From a virus (lineage: Duplodnaviria > Heunggongvirae > Uroviricota > Caudoviricetes), in the IMG/VR virus record IMGVR_UViG_2547132417_000005: a stretch of 28,860 nt of DNA, one strand, 5' to 3'. A model generated the notes under the pieces. That model made no database searches. It was not told where the DNA came from and saw nothing but the letters and a program-made list of their open reading frames with translations. The position numbers and the translations under genes are program-made. The first letter of the stretch is position 1. Every line of letters begins with the position of its first letter. Positions 13,565 to 28,860 of the stretch are shown here, one piece after another.

Positions 13565-14590
13565 ATGTCGATGTACACAACCGCCCAGCTGCTGGCGGCA
13601 AATGAGCAGAAATTTAAGTTTGATCCGCTGTTTCTGCGTCTCTTTTTCCGTGAGAGCTATCCCTTCACCACGGAGAAAGTCTATCTCTCACAAATTCCTG
13701 GACTGGTAAACATGGCGCTGTACGTTTCGCCAATTGTTTCCGGTGAGGTTATCCGTTCCCGTGGCGGCTCCACTTCTGAATTTACGCCGGGTTATGTCAA
13801 GCCGAAGCATGAGGTGAATCCGCAGATGACCCTGCGTCGCCTGCCGGATGAAGATCCGCAGAATCTGGCGGACCCGGCTTACCGCCGCCGTCGCATCATC
13901 CTGCAGAACATGCGTGACGAAGAGCTGGCCATTGCTCAGGTCGAAGAGATGCAGGCAGTTTCTGCCGTGCTCAAGGGCAAATACACCATGACCGGTGAAG
14001 CCTTCGATCCGGTTGAGGTGGATATGGGCCGCAGTGCGGCGAACAACATCACGCAGTCCGGCGGCACGGAGTGGAGCAAGCGTGACAAGTCCACGTATGA
14101 CCCGACCGACGATATCGAAGCCTACGCGCTGAACGCCAGCGGCGTGGTGAATATCATCGTGTTTGATCCGAAAGGCTGGGCGCTGTTCCGTTCCTTCAAA
14201 GCCGTCAGGGAGAAGCTGGATACCCGTCGCGGCTCTCATTCCGAGCTGGAGACAGCGGTGAAAGACCTGGGTAAAGCGGTGTCCTATAAGGGGATGTATG
14301 GCGATGTGGCCATCGTCGTGTATTCCGGACAGTACGTGGAAAACGGCGTCAAAAAGAACTTCCTGCCGGACAACACGATGGTACTGGGGAACACTCAGGC
14401 ACGCGGTCTGCGCACCTATGGCTGCATTCAGGATGCGGACGCATTGAGTGAGGGTATTAATGCGTCTCCCCGTTATCCGAAAAACTGGAAGACATCCGGC
14501 GATCCGGCGCGAGAGTTCACCATGATTCAGTCAGCACCGCTGATGCTGCTGGCTGATCCTGATGAGTTCGTGTCCGTACAACTGGCGTAA
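13565..14590 (+). CDS. E: Major capsid protein E
   Basis: 341-aa product MSMYTTAQLLAANEQKFKFDPLFLRLFFRESYPFTTEKVYLSQIPGLVNMALYVSPIVSGEVIRSRGG..., lambda gpE-like. Confidence 0.95.
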   Translation: MSMYTTAQLLAANEQKFKFDPLFLRLFFRESYPFTTEKVYLSQIPGLVNMALYVSPIVSGEVIRSRGGSTSEFTPGYVKPKHEVNPQMTLRRLPDEDPQNLADPAYRRRRIILQNMRDEELAIAQVEEMQAVSAVLKGKYTMTGEAFDPVEVDMGRSAANNITQSGGTEWSKRDKSTYDPTDDIEAYALNASGVVNIIVFDPKGWALFRSFKAVREKLDTRRGSHSELETAVKDLGKAVSYKGMYGDVAIVVYSGQYVENGVKKNFLPDNTMVLGNTQARGLRTYGCIQDADALSEGINASPRYPKNWKTSGDPAREFTMIQSAPLMLLADPDEFVSVQLA

Positions 14591-14592
14591 TC

Positions 14593-14619
14593 ATGGCCCT
14601 TCGGGGCCATTTTCTCTCT
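14593..14619 (+). promoter_or_regulatory. UUCG-tetraloop hairpin between E and FI
   Basis: ATGGCCC-ttcg-GGGCCAT followed by TTTCTCTCT, directly after the E stop codon. Confidence 0.4.
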
Positions 14620-14631
14620 GTGGAGGAGTCC

Positions 14632-15027
14632 ATGACGAAAGATGAACTGATTGCCCGTCTTCAGGTGCTGGGTGAGCAACTGAACCGTGATGTCAGCCTG
14701 ACGGGGACGAAAGAAGAACTGGCACTCCGTGTGGCAGAGCTGGAAGAGGAGCTTGATGACACGGATGACGCTGCCGGTCAGGACACATCTGTCAGCCCGG
14801 AAAATGCGCTGACCGGACATGAAAATGAGGTTGTATCAGCGCAGCCGGATACCGTGACTGATACGGCTGAACTGGTCACGGTTGTGGCACTGGTGACGCT
14901 GCATACTGATGCACTTCACGCCACGCGGGATGAGGCTGTGGCATTTGTGCTGCCGGGAACGGCGTTCCGTGTCTCTGTCGGTGTGGCAGCTGAAATGACA
15001 GAGCGCGGCCTGGCCAGAATGCAATAA
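14632..15027 (+). CDS. FI: DNA-packaging protein FI
   Basis: MTKDELIARLQVLGEQLNRDVSLTGTKEELALRVAELEEELDD... with GGAGG upstream. Position between E and FII. Confidence 0.85.
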   Translation: MTKDELIARLQVLGEQLNRDVSLTGTKEELALRVAELEEELDDTDDAAGQDTSVSPENALTGHENEVVSAQPDTVTDTAELVTVVALVTLHTDALHATRDEAVAFVLPGTAFRVSVGVAAEMTERGLARMQ

Positions 15028-15038
15028 CGGGAGGCGCT

Positions 15039-15392
15039 GTGGCTGATTTCGATAACCTGTTCGATGCTGCCATTGCCTGCGCCGATGAAACGATACGCGG
15101 GTACATGGGAACGTCAGCCACCATGACATCCGGTGAGCAGTCCGGTGCTGTGATACGTGGTGTTTTTGATGACCCTGAAAATATCAGCTATGCCGGACAG
15201 GGCGTGCGCGTTGAAGGCTCCAGCCCGTCCCTGTTTGTCCGGACTGATGATGTGCGGCAGCTGCGGCGCGGCGACACGCTGACCATCGGTGAGGAAAACT
15301 TCTGGATAGACCGGATTTCGCCGGATGATGGCGGAAGCTGTCATCTCTGGCTTGGGCGGGGCGTACCGCCTGCCGTTAACCGTCGCCGCTGA
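15039..15392 (+). CDS. FII: Head-tail connector protein FII
   Basis: 117-aa product (GTG start) ADFDNLFDAAIACADETIRGYMGTSATMTSGEQSGAVIRGVFDDPENISYAGQGVRVEG... Confidence 0.9.
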   Translation: MADFDNLFDAAIACADETIRGYMGTSATMTSGEQSGAVIRGVFDDPENISYAGQGVRVEGSSPSLFVRTDDVRQLRRGDTLTIGEENFWIDRISPDDGGSCHLWLGRGVPPAVNRRR

Positions 15393-15403
15393 AAGGGGGA
15401 TGT

Positions 15404-15982
15404 ATGGCCATAAAAGGTCTTGAGCAGGCCGTTGAAACCCTCAGCCGTATCAGCAGAACGGCGGTGCCCGGTGCCGCCGCAATGGCCATTAACCGCGTTG
15501 CTTCATCCGCGATATCGCAGTCGGCGTCACAGGTTGCCCGTGAGACAAAGGTACGCCGGAAACTGGTAAAGGAAAGGGCCAGGCTGAAAAGGGCCACGGT
15601 CAAAAATCCGCAGGCCAGAATCAGGGTTAACCGGGGGGATTTGCCCGTAATAAAGCTGGGTAACGCGCGGATTGTCCTGTCCCGACGCAGGCGTCGTAAA
15701 AAGGGGCAGCGTTCAGCCCTGAAAGGTGGCGGCAGCGTGCTTGTGGTGGGAAACCGTCGTATTCCCGGCGCGTTTATTCAGCAACTGAAAAATGGCCGGT
15801 GGCATGTCATGCAGCGTGTGGCCGGGAAAAACCGTTACCCCATTGATGTGGTGAAAATCCCGATGGCAGTGCCGCTGACCACGGCGTTTAAACAGAATAT
15901 TGAGCGGATACGGCGTGAACGTCTTCCGAAAGAGCTGGGCTATGCGCTGCAGCATCAACTGAGGATGGTAATAAAGCGATGA
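15404..15982 (+). CDS. Z: Tail completion protein Z
   Basis: 192-aa basic protein MAIKGLEQAVETLSRISRTAVPGAAAMAINRVASSAISQSASQVARETKV... Confidence 0.9.
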   Translation: MAIKGLEQAVETLSRISRTAVPGAAAMAINRVASSAISQSASQVARETKVRRKLVKERARLKRATVKNPQARIRVNRGDLPVIKLGNARIVLSRRRRRKKGQRSALKGGGSVLVVGNRRIPGAFIQQLKNGRWHVMQRVAGKNRYPIDVVKIPMAVPLTTAFKQNIERIRRERLPKELGYALQHQLRMVIKR

Positions 15983-16374
15983 AACATACAGAACTCCGTG
16001 CAGCCGTACTGGATGCACTGGAGAAGCATGACACCGGGGCGACGCTTTTTGATGGTCGCCCCGCTGTTTTTGATGAGGCGGATTTTCCGGCAGTTGCCGT
16101 TTATCTCACCGGCGCTGAATACACGGGCGAAGAGCTGGACAGCGATACCTGGCAGGCTGAGCTGCATATCGAAGTTTTCCTGCCTGCTCAGGTGCCGGAT
16201 TCAGAGCTGGATTCGTGGATGGAGTTCCGGATTTATCCGGTGATGAGCGATATCCCGGCACTGTCAGATTTGATCACCAGTATGGTGGCCAGTGGCTATG
16301 ACTACCGGCGCGACGATGATGCGGGCCTGTGGAGTTCAGCCGATCTGACGTATGTCATTACCTATGAAATGTGA
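15979..16374 (+). CDS. U: Tail terminator protein U
   Basis: 131-aa product [54 protein letters not shown]...; start overlaps the Z stop. Confidence 0.9.
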
Positions 16375-16381
16375 GGACGAT

Positions 16382-17122
16382 ATGCCTGTACCAAATCCTG
16401 TAATGCCGGTGAAAGGTGCCGGGACCACCCTGTGGGTTTATAACGGGAGCGGCGACCCTTATGCGAACCCGCTTTCAGATGTTGACTGGTCGCGTCTGGC
16501 TAAAGTTAAAGACCTGACGCCCGGCGAACTGACCGCTGAGTCCTATGACGACAGTTATCTCGATGATGAAGATGCGGACTGGACCGCGACCGGGCAGGGG
16601 CAGAAATCCGCCGGAGATACCAGCTTCACGCTGGCGTGGATGCCCGGAGAGCAGGGGCAGCAGGCGCTGCTGGCGTGGTTTAATGAAGGCGATACCCGTG
16701 CCTATAAAATCCGCTTCCCGAACGGCACGGTCGATGTGTTCCGTGGCTGGGTCAGCAGGATCGGTAAGGCGGTGACGGCGAAGGAAGTGATCACCCGTAC
16801 GGTGAAGGTCACCAATGTGGGCCGTCCGTCAATGGCAGAAGATCGCAGTACGGTGACGGCGGCAACCGGTATGACTGTGACGCCTGCCAGCTCCTCGGTG
16901 GTGAAAGGGCAGAGCACCACGCTGACCGTGGCATTCCAGCCGGAGGGTGCAACTGACAAGAGCTTCCGTGCGGTGTCAGCGGATAAAACAAAAGCCACCG
17001 TGTCGGTCAGTGGTATGACCATCACCGTGAATGGCGTTGCTGCAGGTAAGGTCAACATTCCGGTCGTATCCGGTAATGGTGAGTTTGCTGCGGTTGCAGA
17101 AATCACCGTCACCGCCAGTTAA
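16382..17122 (+). CDS. V: Major tail tube protein V
   Basis: 246-aa product [57 protein letters not shown]... Confidence 0.95.
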
Positions 17123-17137
17123 TCCGGAGAGTCAGCG

Positions 17138-17560
17138 ATGTTCCTGAAAACCGAATCATTTGAACATAACGGTGTGACCGTCACGCTTTCTGAACTGTCA
17201 GCCCTGCAGCGTATTGAGCATCTCGCCCTGATGAAACGGCAGGCAGAACAGGCGGAGTCAGACAGCAACCGGAAGTTTACTGTGGAAGACGCCATCAGAA
17301 CCGGCGCGTTTCTGGTGGCGATGTCCCTGTGGCATAACCATCCGCAGAAGACGCAGATGCCGTCCATGAATGAAGCCGTTAAACAGATTGAGCAGGAAGT
17401 GCTTACCACCTGGCCCACGGAGGCAATTTCTCATGCTGAAAACGTGGTGTACCGGCTGTCCGGTATGTATGAGTTTGTTGTGAATAATACCCCTGAACAG
17501 ACAGAGGACGCCGGGCCTGCAGAGCCTGTTTCTGCGGGAAAGTGTTCGACGGTGAGCTGA
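17138..17560 (+). CDS. G: Tail assembly chaperone G
   Basis: 140-aa product MFLKTESFEHNGVTVTLSELSALQRIEHLALMKRQAEQAESDSNRKFTVEDAIRTGAF... Confidence 0.9.
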   Translation: MFLKTESFEHNGVTVTLSELSALQRIEHLALMKRQAEQAESDSNRKFTVEDAIRTGAFLVAMSLWHNHPQKTQMPSMNEAVKQIEQEVLTTWPTEAISHAENVVYRLSGMYEFVVNNTPEQTEDAGPAEPVSAGKCSTVS

Positions 17561-17976
17561 GTTTTGCCCTGAAACTGGCGCGTGAGATGGGGCGACCCGA
17601 CTGGCGTGCCATGCTTGCCGGGATGTCATCCACGGAGTATGCCGACTGGCACCGCTTTTACAGTACCCATTATTTTCATGATGTTCTGCTGGATATGCAC
17701 TTTTCCGGGCTGACGTACACCGTGCTCAGCCTGTTTTTCAGCGATCCGGATATGCATCCGCTGGATTTCAGTCTGCTTAACCGGCGCGAGGCTGACGAAG
17801 AGCCTGAAGATGATGTGCTGATGCAGAAAGCGGCAGGGCTTGCCGGAGGTGTCCGCTTTGGCCCGGACGGGAATGAAGTTATCCCCGCTTCCCCGGATGT
17901 GGCGGACATGACGGAGGATGACGTAATGCTGATGACAGTATCAGAAGGGATCGCAGGAGGAGTCCGGTATGGCTGA
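17138..17976 (+). CDS. G-T: Tail assembly protein G-T fusion, made by programmed -1 ribosomal frameshift at 17536-17542
   Basis: Slippery heptamer G GGA AAG at 17536-17542 in the G frame (X XXY YYZ). The -1 frame continues into the T ORF (17542-17976), the arrangement known for lambda gpGT. Confidence 0.75.
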
Positions 17977-20530
17977 ACCGGTAGGCGATCTGGTCGTTGA
18001 TTTAAGTCTGGATGCGGCCAGATTTGACGAGCAGATGGCCAGAGTCAGGCGTCATTTTTCCGGTACGGAAACTGATGCGAAAAAAACAGCGGCAGTCGTT
18101 GAACAGTCGCTGAGCCGACAGGCGCTGGCTGCACAGAAAGCGGGGATTTCCGTCGGGCAGTATAAAGCCGCCATGCGTATGCTGCCTGCACAGTTCACCG
18201 ACGTGGCCACGCAGCTTGCAGGCGGGCAAAGCCCGTGGCTGATCCTGCTGCAACAGGGTGGTCAGGTTAAGGACTCCTTCGGCGGGATGATCCCCATGTT
18301 CCGGGGGCTTGCCGGTGCGATCACCCTGCCGATGGTCGGGGCCACCTCGCTGGCGGTGGCGACCGGTGCGCTGGCGTATGCCTGGTATCAGGGTAACTCA
18401 ACCCTGTCCGATTTCAACAAAACGCTGGTCCTTTCCGGTAATCAGTCGGGTCTGACGGCAGATCGTATGCTGGTCCTGTCCAGAGCCGGGCAGGCGGCAG
18501 GGCTGACGTTTAACCAGACCAGCGAGTCACTCAGTGCACTGGTTAAGGCGGGGGTAAGCGGTGAGGCTCAGATTGCGTCCATCAGCCAGAGTGTGGCGCG
18601 TTTCTCTTCTGCATCCGGTGTGGAGGTGGACAAGGTCGCTGAAGCCTTCGGGAAGCTGACCACTGACCCGACGTCGGGGCTGACGGCGATGGCGCGCCAG
18701 TTCCATAACGTGACGGCGGAGCAGATTGCGCATGTTGCTCAGTTGCAGCGTTCCGGCGATGAAGCCGGGGCATTGCAGGCGGCGAACGAAGCCGCAACGA
18801 AAGGGTTTGATGACCAGACCCGCCGCCTGAAAGAGAACATGGGCACGCTGGAGACCTGGGCAGACAGGACAGCGCGGGCATTCAAATCCATGTGGGATGC
18901 GGTGCTGGATATTGGTCGTCCTGATACCGCGCAGGAGATGCTGATTAAGGCAGAGGCTGCGTTTAAGAAAGCAGACGACATCTGGAATCTGCGCAAGGAT
19001 GATTATTTTGTTAACGATGAAGCGCGGGCGCGTTACTGGGATGATCGTGAAAAGGCCCGTCTTGCGCTTGAAGCCGCCCGAAAGAAGGCTGAGCAGCAGA
19101 CTCAACAGGACAAAAATGCGCAGCAGCAGAGCGATACCGAAGCGTCACGGCTGAAATATACCGAAGAGGCGCAGAAGGCTTACGAACGGCTGCAGACGCC
19201 GCTGGAGAAATATACCGCCCGTCAGGAAGAACTGAACAAGGCACTGAAAGACGGGAAAATCCTGCAGGCGGATTACAACACGCTGATGGCGGCGGCGAAA
19301 AAGGATTATGAAGCGACGCTGAAAAAGCCGAAACAGTCCGGCGTGAAGGTGTCTGCGGGCGATCGTCAGGAAGACAGTGCTCATGCTGCCCTGCTGACGC
19401 TTCAGGCAGAACTCCGGACGCTGGAGAAGCATGCCGGAGCGAATGAGAAAATCAGCCAGCAGCGCCGGGATTTGTGGAAGGCGGAGAGTCAGTTCGCGGT
19501 ACTGGAGGAGGCGGCGCAACGTCGCCAGCTGTCTGCACAGGAGAAATCCCTGCTGGCGCATAAAGATGAGACGCTGGAGTACAAACGCCAGCTGGCTGCA
19601 CTTGGCGACAAGGTTACGTATCAGGAGCGCCTGAACGCGCTGGCGCAGCAGGCGGATAAATTCGCACAGCAGCAACGGGCAAAACGGGCCGCCATTGATG
19701 CGAAAAGCCGGGGGCTGACTGACCGGCAGGCAGAACGGGAAGCCACGGAACAGCGCCTGAAGGAACAGTATGGCGATAATCCGCTGGCGCTGAATAACGT
19801 CATGTCAGAGCAGAAAAAGACCTGGGCGGCTGAAGACCAGCTTCGCGGGAGCTGGATGGCAGGCCTGAAGTCCGGCTGGAGTGAGTGGGAAGAGAGCGCC
19901 ACGGACAGTATGTCGCAGGTAAAAAGTGCAGCCACGCAGACCTTTGATGGTATTGCACAGAATATGGCGGCGATGCTGACCGGCAGTGAGCAGAACTGGC
20001 GCAGCTTCACCCGCTCTGTGCTGTCCATGATGACAGAAATTCTGCTTAAGCAGGCAATGGTGGGGATTGTCGGGAGTATCGGCAGCGCCATTGGCGGGGC
20101 TGTTGGTGGCGGCGCATCCGCGTCAGGCGGCACAGCCATTCAGGCCGCTGCGGCGAAATTCCATTTTGCAACCGGAGGATTTACGGGAACCGGCGGCAAA
20201 TATGAGCCAGCGGGGATTGTTCACCGTGGTGAATTTGTCTTCACGAAGGAGGCAACCAGCCGGATTGGCGTGGGAAATCTCTACCGGCTGATGCGCGGCT
20301 ATGCCACCGGCGGTTATGTCGGTGGCACCGGAAGTCCGGCGCAAATGCGGCGTTCAGAGGGTATCAGGTTTGAGCATAACAACAACGTGGTGATTCAGAA
20401 CGACGGTACGAATGGTCTGCCAGGTCCACAGATGATGAAAGCAGTGTATGACATGGCCCGCAAGGGTGCCCGTGATGAAATTCAGACACAGATGCGTGAT
20501 GGTGGCCTGTTCTCCGGAGGTGGACGATGA
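17969..20530 (+). CDS. H: Tail tape-measure protein H
   Basis: 853-aa product starting MAEPVGDLVVDLSLDAARFDEQMARVRRHFSGTETDAKKTAAVVEQSL...; same length as lambda gpH. Confidence 0.95.
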   Translation: MAEPVGDLVVDLSLDAARFDEQMARVRRHFSGTETDAKKTAAVVEQSLSRQALAAQKAGISVGQYKAAMRMLPAQFTDVATQLAGGQSPWLILLQQGGQVKDSFGGMIPMFRGLAGAITLPMVGATSLAVATGALAYAWYQGNSTLSDFNKTLVLSGNQSGLTADRMLVLSRAGQAAGLTFNQTSESLSALVKAGVSGEAQIASISQSVARFSSASGVEVDKVAEAFGKLTTDPTSGLTAMARQFHNVTAEQIAHVAQLQRSGDEAGALQAANEAATKGFDDQTRRLKENMGTLETWADRTARAFKSMWDAVLDIGRPDTAQEMLIKAEAAFKKADDIWNLRKDDYFVNDEARARYWDDREKARLALEAARKKAEQQTQQDKNAQQQSDTEASRLKYTEEAQKAYERLQTPLEKYTARQEELNKALKDGKILQADYNTLMAAAKKDYEATLKKPKQSGVKVSAGDRQEDSAHAALLTLQAELRTLEKHAGANEKISQQRRDLWKAESQFAVLEEAAQRRQLSAQEKSLLAHKDETLEYKRQLAALGDKVTYQERLNALAQQADKFAQQQRAKRAAIDAKSRGLTDRQAEREATEQRLKEQYGDNPLALNNVMSEQKKTWAAEDQLRGSWMAGLKSGWSEWEESATDSMSQVKSAATQTFDGIAQNMAAMLTGSEQNWRSFTRSVLSMMTEILLKQAMVGIVGSIGSAIGGAVGGGASASGGTAIQAAAAKFHFATGGFTGTGGKYEPAGIVHRGEFVFTKEATSRIGVGNLYRLMRGYATGGYVGGTGSPAQMRRSEGIRFEHNNNVVIQNDGTNGLPGPQMMKAVYDMARKGARDEIQTQMRDGGLFSGGGR

Positions 20531-20856
20531 AGACCTTCCGCTGGAAAGTGAAACCCGGTATGGATGTGGCTTCGGTCCCTTCTGTAAGAAAGGTGCGCTT
20601 TGGTGATGGCTATTCCCAGCGAGCGCCTGCCGGGCTGAATAACCAGTTGTCGACTTACAGCGTGACGATACGTGTTCGTAAATGTGAACACCCATCTTTA
20701 AAAGCCTTTCTGGAACGGCACGGTGGCGTCCGCGCATTTCAGTGGACGCCACCTTATGACTGGAAGCCGATCAGGGTGGTTTGTCGTAAATGGTCGGCAA
20801 GCGTGGGGGCGCTGTGGGTAACCATAACGGCAGATTTTGAACAGGTCGTGGCATAG
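20527..20856 (+). CDS. M: Tail tip protein M
   Basis: 109-aa product MKTFRWKVKPGMDVASVPSVRKVRFGDGYSQRAPAGLNNQL...; start overlaps the H stop. Confidence 0.9.
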   Translation: MKTFRWKVKPGMDVASVPSVRKVRFGDGYSQRAPAGLNNQLSTYSVTIRVRKCEHPSLKAFLERHGGVRAFQWTPPYDWKPIRVVCRKWSASVGALWVTITADFEQVVA

Positions 20857-20865
20857 GAGGCCCTG

Positions 20866-21564
20866 ATGCAGGATATTTCACAGGAAACACATCATGAGAC
20901 GACACGCCTCACTCAGTCAGCCCAGGTGGTGCTCTGGGAAATCGATCTGACAGTGGTCGGTGGTGAACGTTATTTTTTCTGTAATGAGCAGAACGATAAA
21001 GGTGAGCCGGTCACCTGGCAGGGGCGACAGTATCAGGCGTATCCCATTCAGGGGACGGGATTTGAACTGAACGGCAAAGGCAGTGCTGCCCGTCCGATAC
21101 TGACGGTTTCTAACCTGCACGGCATGGTCACCGGGATGGCGGAAGACCTGCAGAGTCTGGTCGGAGGAACGGTGGTCCGGCGTAAGGTTTACGCCCGTTT
21201 TCTGGATGCGGTGAACTTCGTCAACGGAAACAGCGACGCCGATCCGGAGCAGGAGGTGATCAGCCGCTGGCGCATCGAGCAGTGCAGCGAACTGAGTGCG
21301 GTCAGTGCCTCCTTTGTGTTGTCCACACCGACGGAAACGGACGGTGCCGTTTTTCCGGGGCGCATCATGCTGGCTAATACCTGCACCTGGACCTATCGCG
21401 GTGATGAGTGCGGTTATCAAGGTCCGGCTGTCGCGGATGAATATGATCAGCCGACGTCCGATATCACGAAGGATAAATGCAGCAAATGCCTGAGTGGCTG
21501 TAAGTTCCGCAATAATGTCGGCAACTTTGGCGGCTTCCTTTCCATTAACAAACTTTCGCAGTAA
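20866..21564 (+). CDS. L: Tail tip protein L
   Basis: 232-aa product MQDISQETHHETTRLTQSAQVVLWEIDLTVVGGERYFFCNEQNDKGEPVTWQGRQYQAYPIQ... Confidence 0.9.
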   Translation: MQDISQETHHETTRLTQSAQVVLWEIDLTVVGGERYFFCNEQNDKGEPVTWQGRQYQAYPIQGTGFELNGKGSAARPILTVSNLHGMVTGMAEDLQSLVGGTVVRRKVYARFLDAVNFVNGNSDADPEQEVISRWRIEQCSELSAVSASFVLSTPTETDGAVFPGRIMLANTCTWTYRGDECGYQGPAVADEYDQPTSDITKDKCSKCLSGCKFRNNVGNFGGFLSINKLSQ

Positions 21565-21569
21565 ATCCC

Positions 21570-22313
21570 ATGACAGAGACAGAATCAGCGATTCTGGCGC
21601 ACGCCCGGCGATGTGCGCCAGCGGAGTCGTGCGGCTTCGTGGTGAGAACGCCGGAAGGGGAAAGATATTTTCCCTGCGTGAATATCTCCGGTGAGCCGGA
21701 GGCGTATTTCCGGATGTCGCCGGAGGACTGGCTGCGGGCAGAGATGCAGGGTGAGATTGTGGCGCTGGTCCACAGCCACCCCGGTGGTCTGCCCTGGCTG
21801 AGTGAGGCCGACCGGCGGCTGCAGGTGCAGAGTGATTTGCCGTGGTGGCTGGTCTGCCGGGGGGCGATTCATAAATTCCGCTGTGTGCCGCATCTCACCG
21901 GGCGGCGCTTTGAGCACGGGGTGACGGACTGTTACACGCTGTTCCGGGACGCTTACCATCTGGCGGGGATTGAGATGCCGGATTTTCATCGCGGGGATGA
22001 CTGGTGGCGTCACGGTCAGAATCTCTATCTGGATAATCTGGAGGCCACAGGGCTGTATCAGGTGCCGTTGTCATCAGCACAACCGGGCGATGTGCTGCTG
22101 TGCTGCTTTGGTTCATCGGTGCCGAATCATGCCGCCATTTACTGTGGTGATGGCGAGCTGCTGCACCATATTCCTGAACAACTGAGTAAACGAGAGAGGT
22201 ACACCGACAAATGGCAGCGACGCACACACTCCCTCTGGCGTCACCGGGCATGGCGCGCATCTGCCTTTACGGGGATTTACAACGATTTGGCCGCCGCATC
22301 GATCTGCGTGTGA
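21570..22313 (+). CDS. K: Tail tip assembly protein K (JAB/MPN-like and NlpC/P60-like domains)
   Basis: 247-aa ORF starting MTETESAILAHARRCAPAESCGFVV. Contains a JAMM-like HSHPGGLPWLSEAD motif and a Cys-containing C-terminal region (VTDCYTLF). The full ORF starts 6 nt after the L stop. Confidence 0.85.
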   Translation: MTETESAILAHARRCAPAESCGFVVRTPEGERYFPCVNISGEPEAYFRMSPEDWLRAEMQGEIVALVHSHPGGLPWLSEADRRLQVQSDLPWWLVCRGAIHKFRCVPHLTGRRFEHGVTDCYTLFRDAYHLAGIEMPDFHRGDDWWRHGQNLYLDNLEATGLYQVPLSSAQPGDVLLCCFGSSVPNHAAIYCGDGELLHHIPEQLSKRERYTDKWQRRTHSLWRHRAWRASAFTGIYNDLAAASICV

Positions 22314-22852
22314 AAACGGGGGCCGAAGCCATCCGGGCGCTGGCCATGCAGATCCCGGCGTTTCGTCAGAAACTGAGCGACGGCTGGTATCAGGTACGCA
22401 TTGCCGGGCGTGATACAGGTGAAACGGAATTATCAGCCCGTCTTAATGAACCGCTGGCAAATGGTGCTGTGATCCATATCGTGCCGCGTCTGGCGGGAGC
22501 CAAAAGTGGCGGTGTGTTTCAGGCTGTGCTGGGGGCGGCTGTTATGGCGGTTGCTATATGGATGCCGGGGGTAGGAATTATGGCGAGTAATCTGCTGTTT
22601 TCTCTCGGTGCCAGTATGACGCTTGGCGGTGTTGCACAGATGCTGGCCCCTAAACCCAAAACCCCCCGCACACAGACAACGGATAACGGCAAACAGAACA
22701 CCTATTTTTCTTCACTGGATAACATGGTTGCCCAGGGCAATGTTCTGCCTGTTCTGTACGGTGAAATGCGCGTGGGGTCACGCGTGGTTTCTCAGGAGAT
22801 CAGCACGGCAGACGAAGGGGATGGTGGTCAGGTTGTGGTGATTGGTCGCTGA
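22211..22852 (+). CDS. I: Tail tip assembly protein I
   Basis: 213-aa ORF overlapping the K 3' end by about 100 nt in another frame, as in lambda. Hydrophobic central segment. Confidence 0.85.
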   Translation: MAATHTLPLASPGMARICLYGDLQRFGRRIDLRVKTGAEAIRALAMQIPAFRQKLSDGWYQVRIAGRDTGETELSARLNEPLANGAVIHIVPRLAGAKSGGVFQAVLGAAVMAVAIWMPGVGIMASNLLFSLGASMTLGGVAQMLAPKPKTPRTQTTDNGKQNTYFSSLDNMVAQGNVLPVLYGEMRVGSRVVSQEISTADEGDGGQVVVIGR

Positions 22853-22912
22853 TGCAAAATGTTTTATGTGAAACCGCCTGCGGGCGGTTTTGTCGTTTAT
22901 GGAGCGTGAGGA

Positions 22913-25900
22913 ATGGGTAAAGGCAGCAGTAAGGGGCATACTCCGCGCGAAGCGAAGGACAACCTGAAGTCCACGCAGTTGCTGAGTGTGATTGATGCCA
23001 TCAGTGAAGGGCCGATTGAAGGTCCGGTGGATGGATTAAAAAGCGTGCTGCTGAACAGTACGCCAGTGCTGGACAGTGAGGGGAATACCAATATCTCCGG
23101 CGTCACGGTGGTGTTCCGGGCCGGTGAGCAGGAGCAGACACCGCCGGAGGGATTTGAATCCTCCGGCTCCGAGACGGTGCTGGGTACGGAAGTGAAATAC
23201 GACACGCCGATCACCCGGACCATCACGTCGGCAAACATTGACCGACTGCGTTTTACCTTCGGCGTGCAGGCACTGGTGGAAACCACCTCAAAGGGGGACC
23301 GGAATCCGTCGGAAGTTCGCCTGCTGGTTCAGATACAGCGTAATGGTGGCTGGGTGACGGAAAAAGACATCACCATTAAGGGCAAAACCACCTCGCAGTA
23401 TCTGGCCTCGGTGGTGGTGGATAACCTGCCGCCGCGCCCGTTTAATATCCGGATGCGCAGAATGACGCTGGACAGCACCACAGACCAGCTGCAGAACAAA
23501 ACGCTCTGGTCGTCATACACCGAAATCATCGATGTGAAACAGTGCTACCCGAACACGGCACTGGTCGGCGTGCAGGTGGACTCGGAACAGTTCGGCAGCC
23601 AGCAGGTGAGCCGTAATTATCATCTTCGCGGGCGCATTCTGCAGGTGCCGTCGAACTATAACCCGCAGACGCGGCAATACAGCGGTATCTGGGACGGAAC
23701 GTTTAAGCCAGCATACAGCAACAACATGGCCTGGTGTCTGTGGGATATGCTGACCCATCCGCGCTACGGCATGGGGAAACGTCTCGGTGCGGCGGATGTG
23801 GACAAATGGGCGCTGTATGTCATCGGCCAGAATTGTGACCAGTCGGTGCCGGACGGCTTTGGCGGTACGGAGCCGCGCATCACCTGTAATGCCTGGCTGA
23901 CCACACAGCGCAAGGCGTGGGATGTGCTCAGTGATTTCTGCTCGGCGATGCGCTGTATGCCGGTATGGAACGGGCAGACGCTGACGTTCGTGCAGGACCG
24001 ACCGTCGGATAAGGTGTGGACCTATAACCGCAGTAATGTGGTGATGCCGGATGATGGCGCGCCGTTCCGCTACAGCTTCAGCGCCCTGAAGGACCGCCAT
24101 AATGCCGTTGAGGTGAACTGGATTGACCCGAATAACGGCTGGGAGACGGCGACAGAGCTTGTGGAGGACACGCAGGCCATTGCCCGTTACGGTCGTAACG
24201 TCACGAAGATGGATGCTTTTGGCTGTACCAGCCGGGGGCAGGCACACCGCGCCGGGCTGTGGCTGATTAAAACGGAACTGCTGGAAACGCAGACCGTGGA
24301 CTTCAGCGTGGGTGCCGAAGGGCTTCGCCATGTACCGGGCGATGTCATTGAAATCTGCGATGATGACTATGCCGGTATCCGCACCGGCGGGCGCGTGCTG
24401 GCGGTAAACAGCCAGACCCGGACGCTGACGCTCGACCGTGAAATCACGCTGCCATCCTCCGGTACCACGCTGATAAGCCTGGTTGACGGAAGTGGCAATC
24501 CGGTCAGCGTGGAGGTTCAGTCCGTCACCGACGGCGTGAAGGTGAAAGTGAGCCGTGTTCCTGACGGCGTTGCCGGATACAGCGTATGGGGGCTGAAGCT
24601 GCCGACGCTGCGCCAGCGCCTGTTCCGCTGCGTGAGTATCCGTGAGAACGACGACGGCACGTATGCCATCACCGCCGTGCAGCATGTACCGGAAAAAGAA
24701 GCCATCGTGGATAACGGGGCGCACTTTGACGGCGACCAGAGCGGCACGGTGAATGGTGTCACGCCGCCAGCGGTGCAGCACCTGACCGCAGAAGTCACCG
24801 CAGACAGCGGGGAATACCAGGTGCTGGCCCGCTGGGACACGCCGAAGGTGGTGAAGGGCGTGAGCTTCCTGCTCCGTCTGACCGTAACAGCGGATGACGG
24901 CAGTGAGCGGCTGGTCAGCACGGCCCGGACGACGGAAACCACATACCGCTTCACGCAACTGGCGCTGGGGCGGTACACGCTGACAGTCCGGGCGGTAAAT
25001 GCGTGGGGACAGCAGGGCGATCCGGCGTCGGTATCGTTCCGGATTGCCGCACCGGCAGCACCGTCGAGGATTGAGCTGACGCCGGGCTATTTTCAGATAA
25101 CCGCCACGCCGCATCTTGCTGTTTATGACCCGACGGTACAGTTTGAGTTCTGGTTCTCGGAAAAGCGGATTACCGATATCAGGCAGGTTGAAACCAGCGC
25201 GCGTTATCTTGGTACGGCGCTGTACTGGATAGCCGCCAGTATCAATATCAAACCGGGCCATGATTATTATTTTTACGTTCGCAGTGTGAACACCGTTGGC
25301 AAATCGGCATTCGTGGAGGCTGTCGGTCAGCCGAGTGATGATGCATCAGGCTATCTGGATTTTTTCAAAGGCGAGATAGGGAAAACCCATCTGGCTCAGG
25401 AGCTGTGGACGCAGATTGATAACGGTCAGCTTGCGCCTGACCTGACTGAAATCAGGACGTCCATAACGGATGTCAGCAATGAAATAACACAGACCGTCAA
25501 TAAGAAACTGGAAGACCAGAGTGCAGCGATCCAGCAGATACAGAAGGTTCAGGTTGATACAAATAATAATCTGAACAGCATGTGGGCTGTGAAGCTGCAG
25601 CAGATGCAGGACGGACGCCTTTATATTGCGGGTATCGGTGCCGGTATTGAGAACACCCCTGACGGCATGCAGAGTCAGGTGCTGCTGGCGGCAGACAGGA
25701 TTGCGATGATTAATCCTGCAAATGGCAACACAAAACCGATGTTTGTTGGTCAGGGTGATCAGATATTCATGAACGACGTGTTCCTGAAACGCCTGACGGC
25801 CCCCACCATTACCAGCGGCGGTAATCCTCCGGCATTTTCCCTGACACCGGACGGGCGGCTGACGGCGAAAAATGCCGATATCAGCGGTAACGTGAATGCG

Positions 25901-26149
25901 AACTCCGGGACGCTCAACAACGTCACGATTAACGAGAACTGTCGGGTTCTGGGAAAATTGTCCGCCAACCAGATTGAAGGCGATCTCGTTAAAACAGTGG
26001 GCAAAGCTTTCCCCAAAAAAGTCGGTGCGTGGGAACGGTGGCCATCCGGTACGGTTACCGTCAGGGTTTGTGATGATCATCCGTTTGACCGGCAGATTGT
26101 TATTCCGGCGGTTATTTTTAACGGTATAGCCCAACAACGTCACGATTAA
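22913..26149 (+). CDS. J: Tail tip / host-specificity protein J, reading frame terminated prematurely at 26149
   Basis: 1078-aa ORF with GAGG upstream of ATG 22913, J-like throughout. It ends ...[48 protein letters not shown], where a duplicated segment shifts the frame. Confidence 0.85.
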
Positions 26150-26348
26150 CGAGAACTGTCGGGTTCTGGGAAAATTGTCCGCCAACCAGATTGAAGGCGA
26201 TCTCGTTAAAACAGTGGGCAAAGCTTTCCCCTGGGACTCCCGTGCACCGGAACGGTGGCCATCAGGGACCATCACCGTCAGGGTTTATGACGATCAGCCG
26301 TTTGACCGGCAGATTGTTATTCCGGCGGTGGCATTCAGCGGCGCTAAA
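25915..26348 (+). repeat. Imperfect tandem direct repeat (2 x about 217 bp) inside the J 3' region
   Basis: 25915-26014 is identical to 26132-26231 (100 bp). The next 117 bp of each copy are homologous but divergent (about 80 percent by eye). Unit length 217 is not a multiple of 3. Confidence 0.8.
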
Positions 26349-26609
26349 CATGAGCGGGAGAATAACGATATTTATTCGTCATGCCGCCTGATAGTACGGA
26401 AAAACGGTGCTGAAATTTATAACCGTACCGCGCTGGATAATACGCTGATTTACAGTGGTGTTATTGATATGCCAGCTGGTCGCGGCCACATGACGCTGGA
26501 GTTTTCGGTGTCATCATGGCTGGTAAATAACTGGTATCCCACAGCAAGTATCAGCGATTTGCTGGTTGTGGTGATGAAGAAAGCCACCGCAGGCATCAGT
26601 ATCAGCTGA
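26130..26609 (+). pseudogene. J: J C-terminal receptor-binding domain, out of frame with the J body
   Basis: Frame open from 26130 (just after an in-frame TAG) to 26609. Encodes ...[85 protein letters not shown]...[14 protein letters not shown], lambda gpJ C-terminus-like. No ATG or RBS; first in-frame alternative start is TTG at 26175. Confidence 0.6.
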
Positions 26610-26627
26610 ATTTTATAACCCATATAC

Positions 26628-26652
26628 GGGCGCCAGAAATGGCGCCTTTTTT
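26628..26652 (+). terminator. Rho-independent terminator downstream of J
   Basis: GGGCGCC-agaaat-GGCGCC followed by TTTTTT. Confidence 0.7.
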
Positions 26653-26676: not shown

Positions 26677-27276
26677 ATGCGTAAAGTTTGTGCAGCCATT
26701 TTGTCCGCAGCCATCTGTCTGGCCGTATCCGGTGCGCCTGCATGGGCGTCTGAGCAGCAGGCCACGCTGAGCGCAGGGTATCTTCATGCCCGTACGAACG
26801 CTCCCGGCAGCGATAATCTGAACGGGATTAACGTGAAATACCGTTATGAGTTTACGGACACGCTGGGGCTGATTACGTCATTCAGTTATGCCAACGCTGA
26901 AGATGAGCAAAAAACGCATTACAGCGATACCCGCTGGCATGAAGATTCCGTTCGTAACCGCTGGTTCAGCGTAATGGCGGGGCCGTCTGTGCGCGTGAAT
27001 GAATGGTTCAGCGCGTATGCGATGGCGGGTGTAGCTTACAGCCGTGTGTCGACTTTCTCCGGGGATTATCTTCGCGTAACTGACAACAAGGGGAAAAAGC
27101 ACGATGTGCTGACCGGAAGTGATGACGGTCGCCACAGCAACACGTCTCTGGCGTGGGGGGCTGGCGTGCAGTTTAACCCGACCGAATCCGTGGCCATTGA
27201 TATTGCTTATGAAGGCTCCGGCAGTGGTGACTGGCGCACTGACGGTTTCATCGTGGGTGTCGGTTATAAATTCTGA
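26677..27276 (+). CDS. lom: Lom outer-membrane protein (Ail/OmpX/PagC family), lysogenic-conversion moron
   Basis: 199-aa product with signal peptide MRKVCAAILSAAICLAVSGAPAWA and C-terminal ...GVGYKF. GAGAGG upstream of the ATG. Flanked by terminators. Confidence 0.9.
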   Translation: MRKVCAAILSAAICLAVSGAPAWASEQQATLSAGYLHARTNAPGSDNLNGINVKYRYEFTDTLGLITSFSYANAEDEQKTHYSDTRWHEDSVRNRWFSVMAGPSVRVNEWFSAYAMAGVAYSRVSTFSGDYLRVTDNKGKKHDVLTGSDDGRHSNTSLAWGAGVQFNPTESVAIDIAYEGSGSGDWRTDGFIVGVGYKF

Positions 27277-27340: not shown

Positions 27341-28860
27341 ATGGCAGTAAAGATTTCAGGTGTACTGAAAGACGGCACAGGAAAACCGGTACAGAACTGC
27401 ACAATCCAGCTGAAAGCAAAACGTAACAGCACCACGGTGGTGGTGAACACGCTGGCCTCAGAAAATCCGGATGAAGCCGGGCGTTACAGCATGGACGTTG
27501 AGTACGGTCAGTACAGCGTTATTCTGTTGGTGGAAGGATTCCCGCCGTCACATGCCGGGACCATCACCGTGTATGAAGATTCCCGACCCGGTACGCTGAA
27601 TGATTTTCTCGGTGCCATGACGGAGGATGATGCCCGTCCGGAGGCACTGCGCCGTTTTGAGCTGATGGTGGAAGAGGTGGCGCGTAACGCGTCCGCGGTG
27701 GCACAGAACACGGCAGCCGCGAAGAAGTCAGCCAGCGATGCCGGCACATCAGCCCGTGAGGCGGCAACCCATGCGACTGATGCTGCAGGCTCAGCACGTG
27801 CAGCCAGCACATCAGCCGGGCAGGCCGCGACGTCGGCTCAGTCAGCGTCTTCCAGCGCAGGAACGGCATCAACAAAGGCTACTGAAGCATCAAAAAGTGC
27901 TGCCGCTGCAGAGTCCTCAAAAAGCGCGGCGGCCACCAGTGCCGCTGCGGCGAAAACGTCAGAAACGAATGCCGCAGCGTCACAACAATCAGCAGCCACT
28001 TCAGCATCCACCGCGACCACGAAAGCGTCAGAAGCTGCCACCTCAGCCCGGGATGCGTCGGCTTCAAAAGAGGCGGCAAAATCATCAGAAACGAGCGCAG
28101 CCTCGAGCGCCAGCAGCGCAGCTTCCTCGGCAACGGCGACAGCAAATTCTGCGAAGGCGGCAAAAACGTCCGAGACGAACGCCAAGGCTTCTGAAACGGC
28201 AGCGGGACAGAGTGCCTCAGCTGCGGCAGGCTCAAAAACAGCGGCTGCGTCGTCTGCCAGTGCCGCGTCAACAAGTGCCGGGCAGGCCTCAGCCAGTGCC
28301 ACCGCCGCCGGAAAATCGGCAGAAAGTGCCGCATCGTCCGCTTCAACAGCCACAACGAAGGCTGGCGAAGCCGCTGTACAGGCCAGCGCAGCAGCGAGGT
28401 CTGCTTCCGCAGCGAAGACATCCGAAACGAATGCGAAAGCGTCGGAAACCCGTGCAGAATCCTCAAAAACGGCAGCCGCATCGTCCGCCAGTTCGGCAGC
28501 GTCATCGGCATCATCTGCGTCTGCTTCAAAAGATGAGGCGACCAGACAGGCGTCAGCAGCGAAGGGCAGCGCCACGACGGCATCCACGAAAGCAACAGAG
28601 GCGGCAGGCAGTGCGACGGCAGCATCTCAGAGCAAAACTGCTGCTGAATCCGCTGCGACCCGTGCGGAAGCTGCTGCTGATCGTGCTGAAGAGATTGCCG
28701 GTGCAGTTGCGATGGAAGACGCAAGCCTTACAACTAAAGGTGTTGTGAAACTTAGCAGTGCTGTTGATAGCACCAGTGAATCGCTGGCCGCAACGCCAAA
28801 AGCAGTTAAAGCAGCCAATGACAATGCGAATAGCAGGGTGCCATCTAACCGAAAAGTTAA
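27341..28860 (+). CDS. stf: Side tail fiber protein Stf, N-terminal 506 codons (3' end beyond the window)
   Basis: Starts MAVKISGVLKDGTGKPVQNCTIQLKAKRNSTTVVVNTLASENPDEAGRYSMDVEYGQYSVILLVEGFPPSHAGTITVYED..., followed by a long Ala/Ser/Thr-rich repetitive region. No stop before the window end, so it is absent from the ORF track. Confidence 0.85.
   Translation, partial: MAVKISGVLKDGTGKPVQNCTIQLKAKRNSTTVVVNTLASENPDEAGRYSMDVEYGQYSVILLVEGFPPSHAGTITVYEDSRPGTLNDFLGAMTEDDARPEALRRFELMVEEVARNASAVAQNTAAAKKSASDAGTSAREAATHATDAAGSARAASTSAGQAATSAQSASSSAGTASTKATEASKSAAAAESSKSAAATSAAAAKTSETNAAASQQSAATSASTATTKASEAATSARDASASKEAAKSSETSAASSASSAASSATATANSAKAAKTSETNAKASETAAGQSASAAAGSKTAAASSASAASTSAGQASASATAAGKSAESAASSASTATTKAGEAAVQASAAARSASAAKTSETNAKASETRAESSKTAAASSASSAASSASSASASKDEATRQASAAKGSATTASTKATEAAGSATAASQSKTAAESAATRAEAAADRAEEIAGAVAMEDASLTTKGVVKLSSAVDSTSESLAATPKAVKAANDNANSRVPSNRKV

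What the first reader, a model, noticed from the sequence alone, without database searches (positions are those of the whole stretch)
25915..26609. J host-range gene split by a 217-bp imperfect tandem duplication carrying a divergent allele
Two adjacent 217-bp units (25915-26131 and 26132-26348) share 100 identical bp followed by 117 bp that are homologous but clearly divergent (first copy encodes [37 protein letters not shown], second [37 protein letters not shown]). Because 217 is not a multiple of 3, J stops at 26149 and the lambda-like receptor-binding C-terminus (26130-26609) sits in the +1 frame with no ATG or RBS. This looks like a recombination scar between two J alleles. It implies an inactivated or altered host-range determinant, or less likely a recoding or switching mechanism; an assembly artefact is also possible.
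Basis: seen in the sequence. Interest (0 to 1): 0.7.

Follow-up and report, generated by a model that had tools for sequence, protein, structure and literature searches.

The report
False tandem duplication in prophage J
The 217-bp duplication that splits the phage tail-tip (host-range) gene J is really in this contig, but its dimensions match the 100-base reads used to build this 2013 draft genome, so it is most likely an assembly error and not a biological event.

Summary
Units 25915-26131 and 26132-26348 form a 217-bp tandem repeat: 100 identical bases, then 117 bases with 32 differences. J stops at 26149, and a complete receptor-binding domain sits out of frame at 26130-26609.

The window is a whole contig (APZL01000083.1) of the draft genome of E. 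coli 2854350. That genome was built from 100-bp HiSeq reads with the Celera Assembler.

Copy 1 is exactly 100 + 17 + 100 nt, the footprint of about 100-nt reads touching the first 17-nt block of differences. Copy 2 starts exactly 100 nt before its first specific base. The junction has no microhomology.

The junction is absent from 5,426 closed E. coli genomes, and the split proteins occur in no other assembly. Copy 1's diverged part is a fine patchwork of the local allele and a phage-434-type J allele: 31 sites match 434 only, 33 match the local allele only, there are 11 switches, and the one private base is the last base. That patchwork is found nowhere else.

There are no recoding or switching signals.

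Best reading: false duplication from two diverged J copies whose contig ends overlapped (about 0.85). A real recombination scar remains possible (about 0.12).

The closed genome of the same strain (CP189652) would settle it, but it is not in the collections available here.

The parts
22913..26149 (+). Truncated J (tip attachment / host specificity protein) ORF as written in the contig, 1078 aa. It ends in ...[12 protein letters not shown].
   Evidence: ORF list. Pfam domains: FNIII-A_GpJ, Phage-tail_3, Ig_J, Ig_J_second, Phage_Tail_Tip (872-1000), and only profile positions 1-47 of 135 of Ig_GpJ_C. Deposited as END43952.1 and found on this contig only.
25915..26131 (+). Copy 1 of the 217-nt unit: 100 nt shared block X (25915-26014), a 17-nt first difference patch (26015-26031), then 100 nt (26032-26131). 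Interpreted as a read-length-limited mini-contig from a second J copy.
   Evidence: 100 + 17 + 100 = 217. Reads were '100 bp'.
26015..26131 (+). Diverged segment of copy 1 ('allele A'). It is a perfect two-parent patchwork of the local B-type allele and a phage-434-type J allele.
   Evidence: 31 sites match 434-type only, 33 match B-type only, and 1 is private (26131). There are 11 switches. No full-length match above 78% in E. coli genomes or phages. Specific strings are absent from GTDB representatives, IMG/VR and metagenomes.
26131..26132 (+). Novel junction (copy 1 end | copy 2 start) with no microhomology. 26131 C is the only base of copy 1 that matches neither parent type.
   Evidence: The junction is absent from 5,426 closed E. 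coli genomes and from IMG/VR.
26132..26348 (+). Copy 2 of the 217-nt unit, an ordinary B-type J allele. It starts exactly 100 nt before its first copy-specific base (26232).
   Evidence: aligned with L001, L003 and L004.
26232..26232 (+). Private T (CGG to TGG, Arg to Trp) exactly at the fork. Unexplained.
   Evidence: None of 5,180 J places in closed E. coli genomes has it. 2,652 records match the 60-nt probe with exactly one mismatch.
26130..26609 (+). Out-of-frame (+1) continuation of J, holding a complete C-terminal receptor-binding domain. Annotated from TTG 26175 as a 144-aa protein (END43953.1).
   Evidence: Pfam Ig_GpJ_C 1-135/135, E = 9e-40. Similar to solved gpJ structures 9wca, 8xcj and 8iyk..
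26628..26647 (+). Intrinsic terminator between J and lom. This is normal lambda-like context, not part of the anomaly.
26677..27276 (+). lom (Ail/Lom outer membrane protein) downstream of J. This is normal context.

Best explanation
The duplication is an assembly artefact, a false tandem duplication.

**Likely cause (inferred).** Strain 2854350 probably carries more than one lambdoid prophage, with J genes that are identical through block X and diverge at the start of the receptor-binding domain. With 100-nt reads, the assembler cannot bridge the fork.
- Reads touching the 17-nt variant patch of a second J copy formed a 217-nt piece (100 + 17 + 100).
- The contig for the B-type J end began at the left-most read that still reached a B-specific base, 100 nt upstream of it.
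- The two pieces truly overlap over the 217 nt. They differ at 32 positions, so the overlap was not recognised. They were laid end to end, which created the repeat, the frameshift and the apparent split of J.

**True locus (inferred).** It is expected to have one 217-nt unit and a continuous 1159-aa J. Deleting copy 1 gives exactly that.

**Shown versus inferred.**
- Shown: the geometry, the read length, the assembler used, the uniqueness of the junction and the chimeric nature of copy 1.
- Inferred: the exact assembler step, and the existence of a second J locus in this strain.
For: 1. **Provenance.** The window is the entire contig APZL01000083.1 of GCA_000356845.2, E. coli 2854350. That genome was sequenced on HiSeq 2000 with '100 bp reads' and assembled with the Celera Assembler. 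The strain, accession and run (SRR488359) are listed in the paper's Table S1.
2. **Geometry.**
   - The identical block is exactly 100 nt.
   - Copy 2 starts at 26132, 100 nt before its first specific base at 26232.
   - Copy 1 ends at 26131, 100 nt after the last base (26031) of the first difference patch.
   - So 217 = 100 + 17 + 100.
3. **Junction.** There is no microhomology. The only base of copy 1 that matches neither parent is its very last base, 26131, where a read-end error would sit.
4. **Uniqueness.**
   - The junction is absent from 5,426 closed E. coli genomes and from IMG/VR.
   - All close relatives are single-copy, spanning 884 bp in the record against the 1101-bp query.
   - Both split proteins occur on this contig only, among about 15 billion proteins.
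   - 80 control loci show no such repeat.
5. **Copy 1 allele.** Its diverged part is a B/434-type patchwork with 11 switches in 117 nt and no private substitutions. It was never seen elsewhere. A positive control with the B-type string gave at least 119 hits.
6. **Reconstruction.** Removing copy 1 restores an uninterrupted 1159-aa J, the usual length in relatives.
7. **Precedent.** Diverged copies assembled separately and placed adjacently are a documented cause of false duplications (PMC2864568).
Against: - No reads could be inspected. The closed genome of the same strain (CP189652) is not in any collection available here. The artefact is therefore inferred, not demonstrated.
- For copy 1 to end exactly at 26131 under a simple read-footprint model, its right flank must be repeated elsewhere in the genome, or the assembler must have truncated it. 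That was not shown.
- With strictly 100-nt rather than 101-nt reads, the footprint is one base short at each end unless one fully repeat-internal read is added.
- The 8 synonymous codon differences show that the non-B bases of copy 1 come from a real coding allele. A real second allele is needed under either explanation.
- The private T at 26232 is not explained by this model.
Confidence: 0.85

Rival explanations
1. The duplication is a real recombination scar. In this strain's lineage, a B-type J and a co-resident or incoming 434-type J formed a heteroduplex that was repaired in patches, giving the mosaic. One end was resolved illegitimately, 217 nt out of register. The result is a true tandem duplication that frameshifts J and removes its receptor-binding domain, leaving a defective or helper-dependent prophage. 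RecA-mediated deletion between the 100-bp perfect repeats could restore an intact B-type J. A crossover in the 33-nt identical block would instead give an in-frame A/B chimera.
For: - Copy 1's non-B bases are all 434-type and respect the codon structure, with 8 synonymous changes. They therefore derive from a genuine J allele.
- 434-type J genes are common in E. coli, with about 1,224 genomes covering the segment, so the two types can plausibly co-reside in one strain.
- J genes are highly mosaic, and natural J 3' remnants begin near block X.
- Both deletion products are in frame at 1159 aa.
Against: - No biological process has a 100-nt length scale. Yet both ends of the unit lie exactly 100 nt from allele-specific bases, equal to the read length.
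- There is no microhomology at the junction.
- 11 parental switches in 117 nt between sequences only about 77% identical, and differing by a 6-nt indel, is hard to obtain in a mismatch-repair-proficient cell.
- The structure, the mosaic and the fork SNP are all private to one short-read draft.
Confidence: 0.12
2. The structure is a functional recoding or switching device. Either a programmed +1 frameshift in the 17-nt overlap (26130-26146) joins the two frames, or the tandem alleles act as a cassette system that alternates host range. Separate translation of the C-terminal domain from TTG 26175 is a variant of the same idea.
For: Only the bare architecture: two alternative versions of the start of the receptor-binding domain lie side by side, and a complete domain sits in the +1 frame.
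Against: - There is no slippery or shifty site in GCC CAA CAA CGT CAC GAT TAA (read directly).
- There is no stimulatory structure; z = -1.39 against shuffles.
- There is no plus-strand promoter, and no ATG before 26469.
- There are no inverted repeats for an invertase.
- The differences are not adenine-specific, as a diversity-generating retroelement would require.
- The architecture is found in no other genome, so it is not conserved.
Confidence: 0.02

Closest known systems
False (erroneous) adjacent duplications from diverged copies in whole-genome assemblies: 'duplicated overlapping contigs', Kelley & Salzberg 2010 (PMC2864568)
   Same: Two diverged versions of one stretch are assembled separately and laid down next to each other, giving an apparent recent duplication. 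The divergence prevents the overlap from being merged.
   Different: Here the two versions are probably paralogous J genes of different prophages in a haploid bacterium, not two haplotypes. The scale is one read length, not kilobases. The pieces were fused without a gap inside one contig.
Phage lambda tip attachment protein J (gpJ; structures 8iyk, 8xcj) and the related 'A8 gpJ' entry (9wca)
   Same: The domain order is the same (FNIII-A_GpJ, Phage-tail_3, Ig_J, Ig_J_second, Phage_Tail_Tip, Ig_GpJ_C). The gene sits between the tail assembly gene I and lom.
   Different: As written, the gene is split and the receptor-binding domain is out of frame. The reconstructed single-copy gene is an ordinary 1159-aa J of the common E. 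coli prophage type, not the lambda (LamB) allele.
Phage 434-type J allele (OL657226 central tail fiber)
   Same: Every base where copy 1 departs from the local allele is the 434-type base. Examples are FPKKVG.W, GTVTV, DDH and IFNGIA.
   Different: Copy 1 keeps the local B-type bases at 33 other sites and lacks the 6-nt insertion of 434. It is only 77% identical to 434 overall.

Membership tests
Lambda-like tip attachment protein J (gpJ) | Characteristic domain series ending in the Ig_GpJ_C receptor-binding domain | tested here: met
   All six Pfam gpJ domains were found. Ig_GpJ_C is split: positions 1-47 lie in the 1078-aa ORF, and a complete 1-135 copy lies in the +1 frame.
Lambda-like tip attachment protein J (gpJ) | Position in the tail gene cluster (tape measure, M, L, K, I, J, lom) | tested here: met
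   Gene calls on the contig and on relatives show this order.
Lambda-like tip attachment protein J (gpJ) | Single continuous reading frame of about 1130-1170 aa | tested here: not met
   As written, the frame stops at 26149. It is met only after removing one 217-nt unit, which gives 1159 aa.
False duplication from mis-assembled diverged copies | Two adjacent copies that are similar but too diverged to be merged by the assembler | tested here: met
   There are 32 differences in the last 117 nt, about 27%. This is well above overlap error thresholds of a few per cent, a figure taken from my general knowledge of the assembler.
False duplication from mis-assembled diverged copies | Boundaries set by the sequencing and assembly process (read length), not by biology | tested here: met
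   There are 100 nt on each side of the 17-nt patch. Copy 2 starts 100 nt before its first specific base. Reads were '100 bp'.
False duplication from mis-assembled diverged copies | Duplication absent from independent assemblies of the same or related genomes | tested here: inconclusive
   It is absent from all other genomes searched. The closed genome of the same strain (CP189652) could not be accessed.
False duplication from mis-assembled diverged copies | No reads or mate pairs supporting the junction; coverage consistent with a single copy | not testable with these tools
   This needs the reads SRR488359, SRR33281815 and SRR33281812.
Programmed ribosomal frameshift (e.g. lambda G/GT, prfB) | Slippery or shifty site in the overlap of the two frames | tested here: not met
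   The overlap 26130-26146 reads GCC CAA CAA CGT CAC GAT TAA and contains no known shift motif (by inspection).
Programmed ribosomal frameshift (e.g. lambda G/GT, prfB) | Stimulatory structure, and conservation in relatives | tested here: not met
   Fold z-score is -1.39. The architecture is absent from all relatives.
Diversity-generating retroelement (template/variable repeat pair) | Differences confined to adenines of one repeat | tested here: not met
   Of 32 differences, copy 1 has A at 9 and copy 2 has A at 8. The rest involve other bases.
Invertase-driven tail fibre switching (Gin/Cin type) | Inverted repeats flanking alternative C-terminal segments | tested here: not met
   The repeats are direct. 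The only inverted pair found is a weak 21-nt chance-level match.

The most novel reading that the evidence does not exclude
The duplication is real. It would be a captured product of homeologous recombination between two co-resident prophage J genes (local B-type and 434-type), with patchy heteroduplex repair and an out-of-register resolution. The prophage's host-range gene would then be switched off reversibly: deletion between the 100-bp direct repeats restores the B-type J, and deletion in the downstream 33-nt identity gives a new chimeric receptor-binding domain. This would be a natural intermediate in the making of mosaic host-range alleles.
Probability: 0.1. Interest if true: 0.5.

Novelty: not a real feature. 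Interest (0 to 1): 0.08.

Why it matters
If this is an artefact, as is most likely, the practical lessons are as follows.
- END43952.1 and END43953.1 are mis-annotated fragments of one ordinary J protein. WP_001507136.1 is listed for the same 144-aa sequence as END43953.1.
- Split host-range genes in short-read drafts of poly-lysogenic E. coli should not be read as pseudogenes or recoding.
- Repeat units of about (2 × read length + patch) are a useful diagnostic for this kind of error.

If it were real, it would be a rare snapshot of how mosaic receptor-binding domains arise between co-resident prophages. It would still be a private, non-conserved lesion rather than a mechanism.

Tried and rejected
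**Looking for allele A as a natural J allele.**
- Searches used: megablast and blastn against 5,426 closed E. coli genomes; blastn against phage GenBank records; exact strings in GTDB representatives, IMG/VR and JGI metagenomes. None found it.
- A peptide search returned only B-type fragments. It is uninformative, because J proteins are clustered at 90% identity and a 39-aa variant is hidden.

**Looking for the same strain's closed genome.**
- CP189652 / NZ_CP189652 is not in the collections.
- The exact gpK protein occurs only on this contig.
- The best closed-genome match over 12 kb is 96.4%.
- The Lom look-up gave 10 loci, all with an unsplit J (1159 or 1165 aa) and none closely related.

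**Other explanations rejected.**
- Diversity-generating retroelement: the differences are not adenine-specific.
- Invertible cassette: there are no inverted repeats.
- Programmed frameshift or independent expression: there is no motif, structure or promoter.
- Mixed-read consensus as the origin of the mosaic: considered but not established. Reads only 77% identical should not co-assemble, and block X of copy 1 is purely B-type.

Full report
**1.

Tandem Repeats Finder reports a single array at 25915-26329: period 217, 1.9 copies, 90% matches, no indels, score 697. The repeat finder gives the same pair, and it is the only sizeable repeat in the whole 28,860-nt window.

Base by base, 25915-26014 equals 26132-26231 (100 nt). 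The remaining 117 nt differ at 32 positions.

The J ORF starts at 22913 and stops at 26149, giving 1078 aa. Because 217 is not a multiple of 3, the rest of J lies in the +1 frame. That frame is open from 26130 to the stop at 26609. Its first in-frame start is TTG at 26175 and its first ATG is at 26469.

On the protein map:
- The repeat unit starts at residue 1002, just after the Phage_Tail_Tip domain (872-1000).
- The point where the copies diverge is residue 1035, six residues into the C-terminal receptor-binding domain Ig_GpJ_C.
- The truncated J keeps only profile positions 1-47 of 135 of that domain.
- The out-of-frame piece holds a complete copy, 1-135, E = 9e-40.
- The reconstructed C-terminus matches solved gpJ structures 9wca, 8xcj and 8iyk.

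The surroundings are ordinary lambda-like tail genes. A J-lom terminator sits at 26628-26647, followed by lom and a tail-fibre gene that runs off the contig.

**2. Where the sequence comes from**

The window is an entire contig, APZL01000083.1 of GCA_000356845.2, from Escherichia coli 2854350. The two J pieces are deposited as END43952.1 and END43953.1.

The strain is an ETEC isolate from Bangladesh. Table S1 of Sahl et al. 2017 lists it as 'sequenced in current study', with accession APZL00000000 and run SRR488359. [quoted passage not shown]

A closed ONT + Illumina genome of the same strain was announced in 2025, with chromosome CP189652. It is not in any collection available here:
- The accession is not found.
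- The exact gpK protein occurs on the draft contig only.
- The best closed-genome match over 12 kb is 96.4%.

**3. The structure is unique to this draft**

- The closest J genes in 5,426 closed E. coli genomes and in phage records all span 884 bp where the window has 1101 bp. They are single-copy.
- A 96-nt probe across the junction finds no record covering it. The junction string is absent from IMG/VR.
- Both split proteins occur on one contig among about 15 billion proteins.
- Among 80 viral or prophage loci with the same B-type J end, none has a tandem repeat here. Several do have broken or remnant J genes for other reasons.

**4. What copy 1 is**

Copy 2 is an ordinary E. coli J allele, called B here. 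It matches relatives L001, L003, L004 and L010, apart from one base discussed below.

Copy 1's diverged 117 nt matches no E. coli or phage sequence across its length above 78%. Its best partial match is 92.6% over 81 nt.

Aligned with phage 434 J, the pattern is clear:
- At 31 sites copy 1 equals the 434 type and not B.
- At 33 sites, including a 6-nt indel, it equals B and not 434.
- At 63 sites all three agree.
- One site is private: the very last base, 26131.
- The parent type switches 11 times in 117 nt.

The 434-type bases respect the codon structure, with 8 synonymous and 11 non-synonymous codon differences. They therefore derive from a real coding allele.

A perfect two-parent patchwork with no private substitutions is not an old, independently evolving allele. 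Strings spanning four of its B/434 switch points are absent from GTDB species representatives, IMG/VR and JGI metagenomes. A control string from the B allele hits at least 119 viral contigs.

**5. The geometry equals the read length**

- The first block of differences is 26015-26031, 17 nt.
- Copy 1 runs from 25915, which is 26015 minus 100, to 26131, which is 26031 plus 100. So 217 = 100 + 17 + 100.
- This is the footprint of all about 100-nt reads that touch the patch. It is exact for 101-nt reads. For 100-nt reads it needs one repeat-internal neighbour read at each end.
- Copy 2 starts at 26132, exactly 100 nt before its first specific base at 26232. A contig built from reads anchored in B-specific sequence would begin there.
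- The junction 26131|26132 has no microhomology. The base before block X is T, while 26131 is C.
- The single private base of copy 1 is its terminal base, where only a read end would provide coverage.

No recombination process I know of has a 100-nt length scale.

Rough odds (my estimate, not a tool result):
- The first coincidence has a chance of about 1% if breakpoints were uniform over a few hundred bases.
- The second has a chance of roughly 5-10%, given three or four possible patch ends.
- Other patch ends lie 75 and 51 nt from the end of copy 1. The second coincidence is therefore weak taken alone. It counts only because the read length is known independently.

**6. Most likely mechanism**

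This is an inference. Strain 2854350, like most E. coli, probably has several lambdoid prophages. Closed genomes that have any match carry a median of 3 J places and up to 15.

Two J copies share block X and then diverge. The assembler produced two pieces:
- a piece ending in the variant sequence, and
- a B-type contig starting one read length upstream of the fork.

These pieces truly overlap by 217 nt but differ at 32 positions. The overlap was not merged, and the pieces were concatenated.

This is the bacterial, read-scale equivalent of the false adjacent duplications described for diverged haplotypes (PMC2864568). Deleting copy 1 restores an uninterrupted 1159-aa J, the usual length in relatives.

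**7. What this model does not explain**

- It does not explain why the variant piece stops exactly at 26131, unless its right flank is repeated elsewhere in the genome.
- It does not explain how the fine B/434 patchwork arose: a real private paralogue, or a correction or consensus chimera.
- It does not explain the private T at 26232 (CGG to TGG, Arg to Trp), which is seen in none of 5,180 J places.

**8. Rivals**

*A real recombination scar.* This would be B × 434-type heteroduplex, patchy repair and out-of-register resolution. It remains possible, at about 0.12. It would mean a J lacking its receptor-binding domain, revertible by deletion between the 100-bp repeats. It requires the read-length geometry to be a coincidence, and it requires 11 switches between sequences only 77% identical.

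*Recoding or switching.* These can be set aside, at about 0.02 or less:
- The 17-nt frame overlap has no shift-prone motif.
- Local RNA structure is unremarkable, z = -1.39.
- There is no plus-strand promoter.
- There are no inverted repeats.
- The differences are not adenine-specific.
- The architecture is not conserved anywhere.

**9. Verdict**

The preferred interpretation, a biological scar that alters host range, is not the best one.

- Confidence in the artefact is about 0.85.
- Interest is low.
- The decisive test is simple and public: compare with CP189652, and map SRR488359 and SRR33281812 across 25900-26360.

Noticed in passing
window 26232: A private C-to-T change (Arg to Trp in the conserved [14 protein letters not shown] motif) sits exactly at the fork between the two copies. 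None of 5,180 J places in closed E. coli genomes has it. It could be a real SNP or a consensus error at a repeat boundary.
   Followed up: partly
window 14000-25914, and 21570-22313 (gpK): No closed E. coli genome matches this prophage tail region above 96.4% over 12 kb, or 97.4% over J. The exact gpK protein is found on this contig only. Either this is a genuinely novel mosaic prophage, or the draft contig is partly a blended consensus of co-resident prophages.
   Followed up: no
L045, L065 (IMG/VR loci); L004 (O157:H7 PV15-279): Natural J 3' remnants ('missing N-terminus') begin within or just upstream of block X. This suggests the boundary between the conserved J body and the variable receptor-binding domain is a recurrent recombination or deletion breakpoint.
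   Followed up: partly
L022-L101 (80 IMG/VR loci with a B-type J end): In 25 of 57 loci where the frame could be followed, the open frame ending at the J stop is shorter than 1100 codons. Several of the nine examined align to the collapsed J only with gaps, and two are 3' remnants. Broken J genes appear to be common in draft or prophage data, and each needs read-level checking.
   Followed up: partly
window 26628-26647: A canonical intrinsic terminator (GGGCGCC-AGAAAT-GGCGCC plus a T-run) lies between J and lom, as annotated in phage 434.
   Followed up: yes
window 27341-28860: The tail-fibre (stf-like) gene downstream of lom runs off the contig end. This is consistent with the contig breaking at another prophage repeat.
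   Followed up: no
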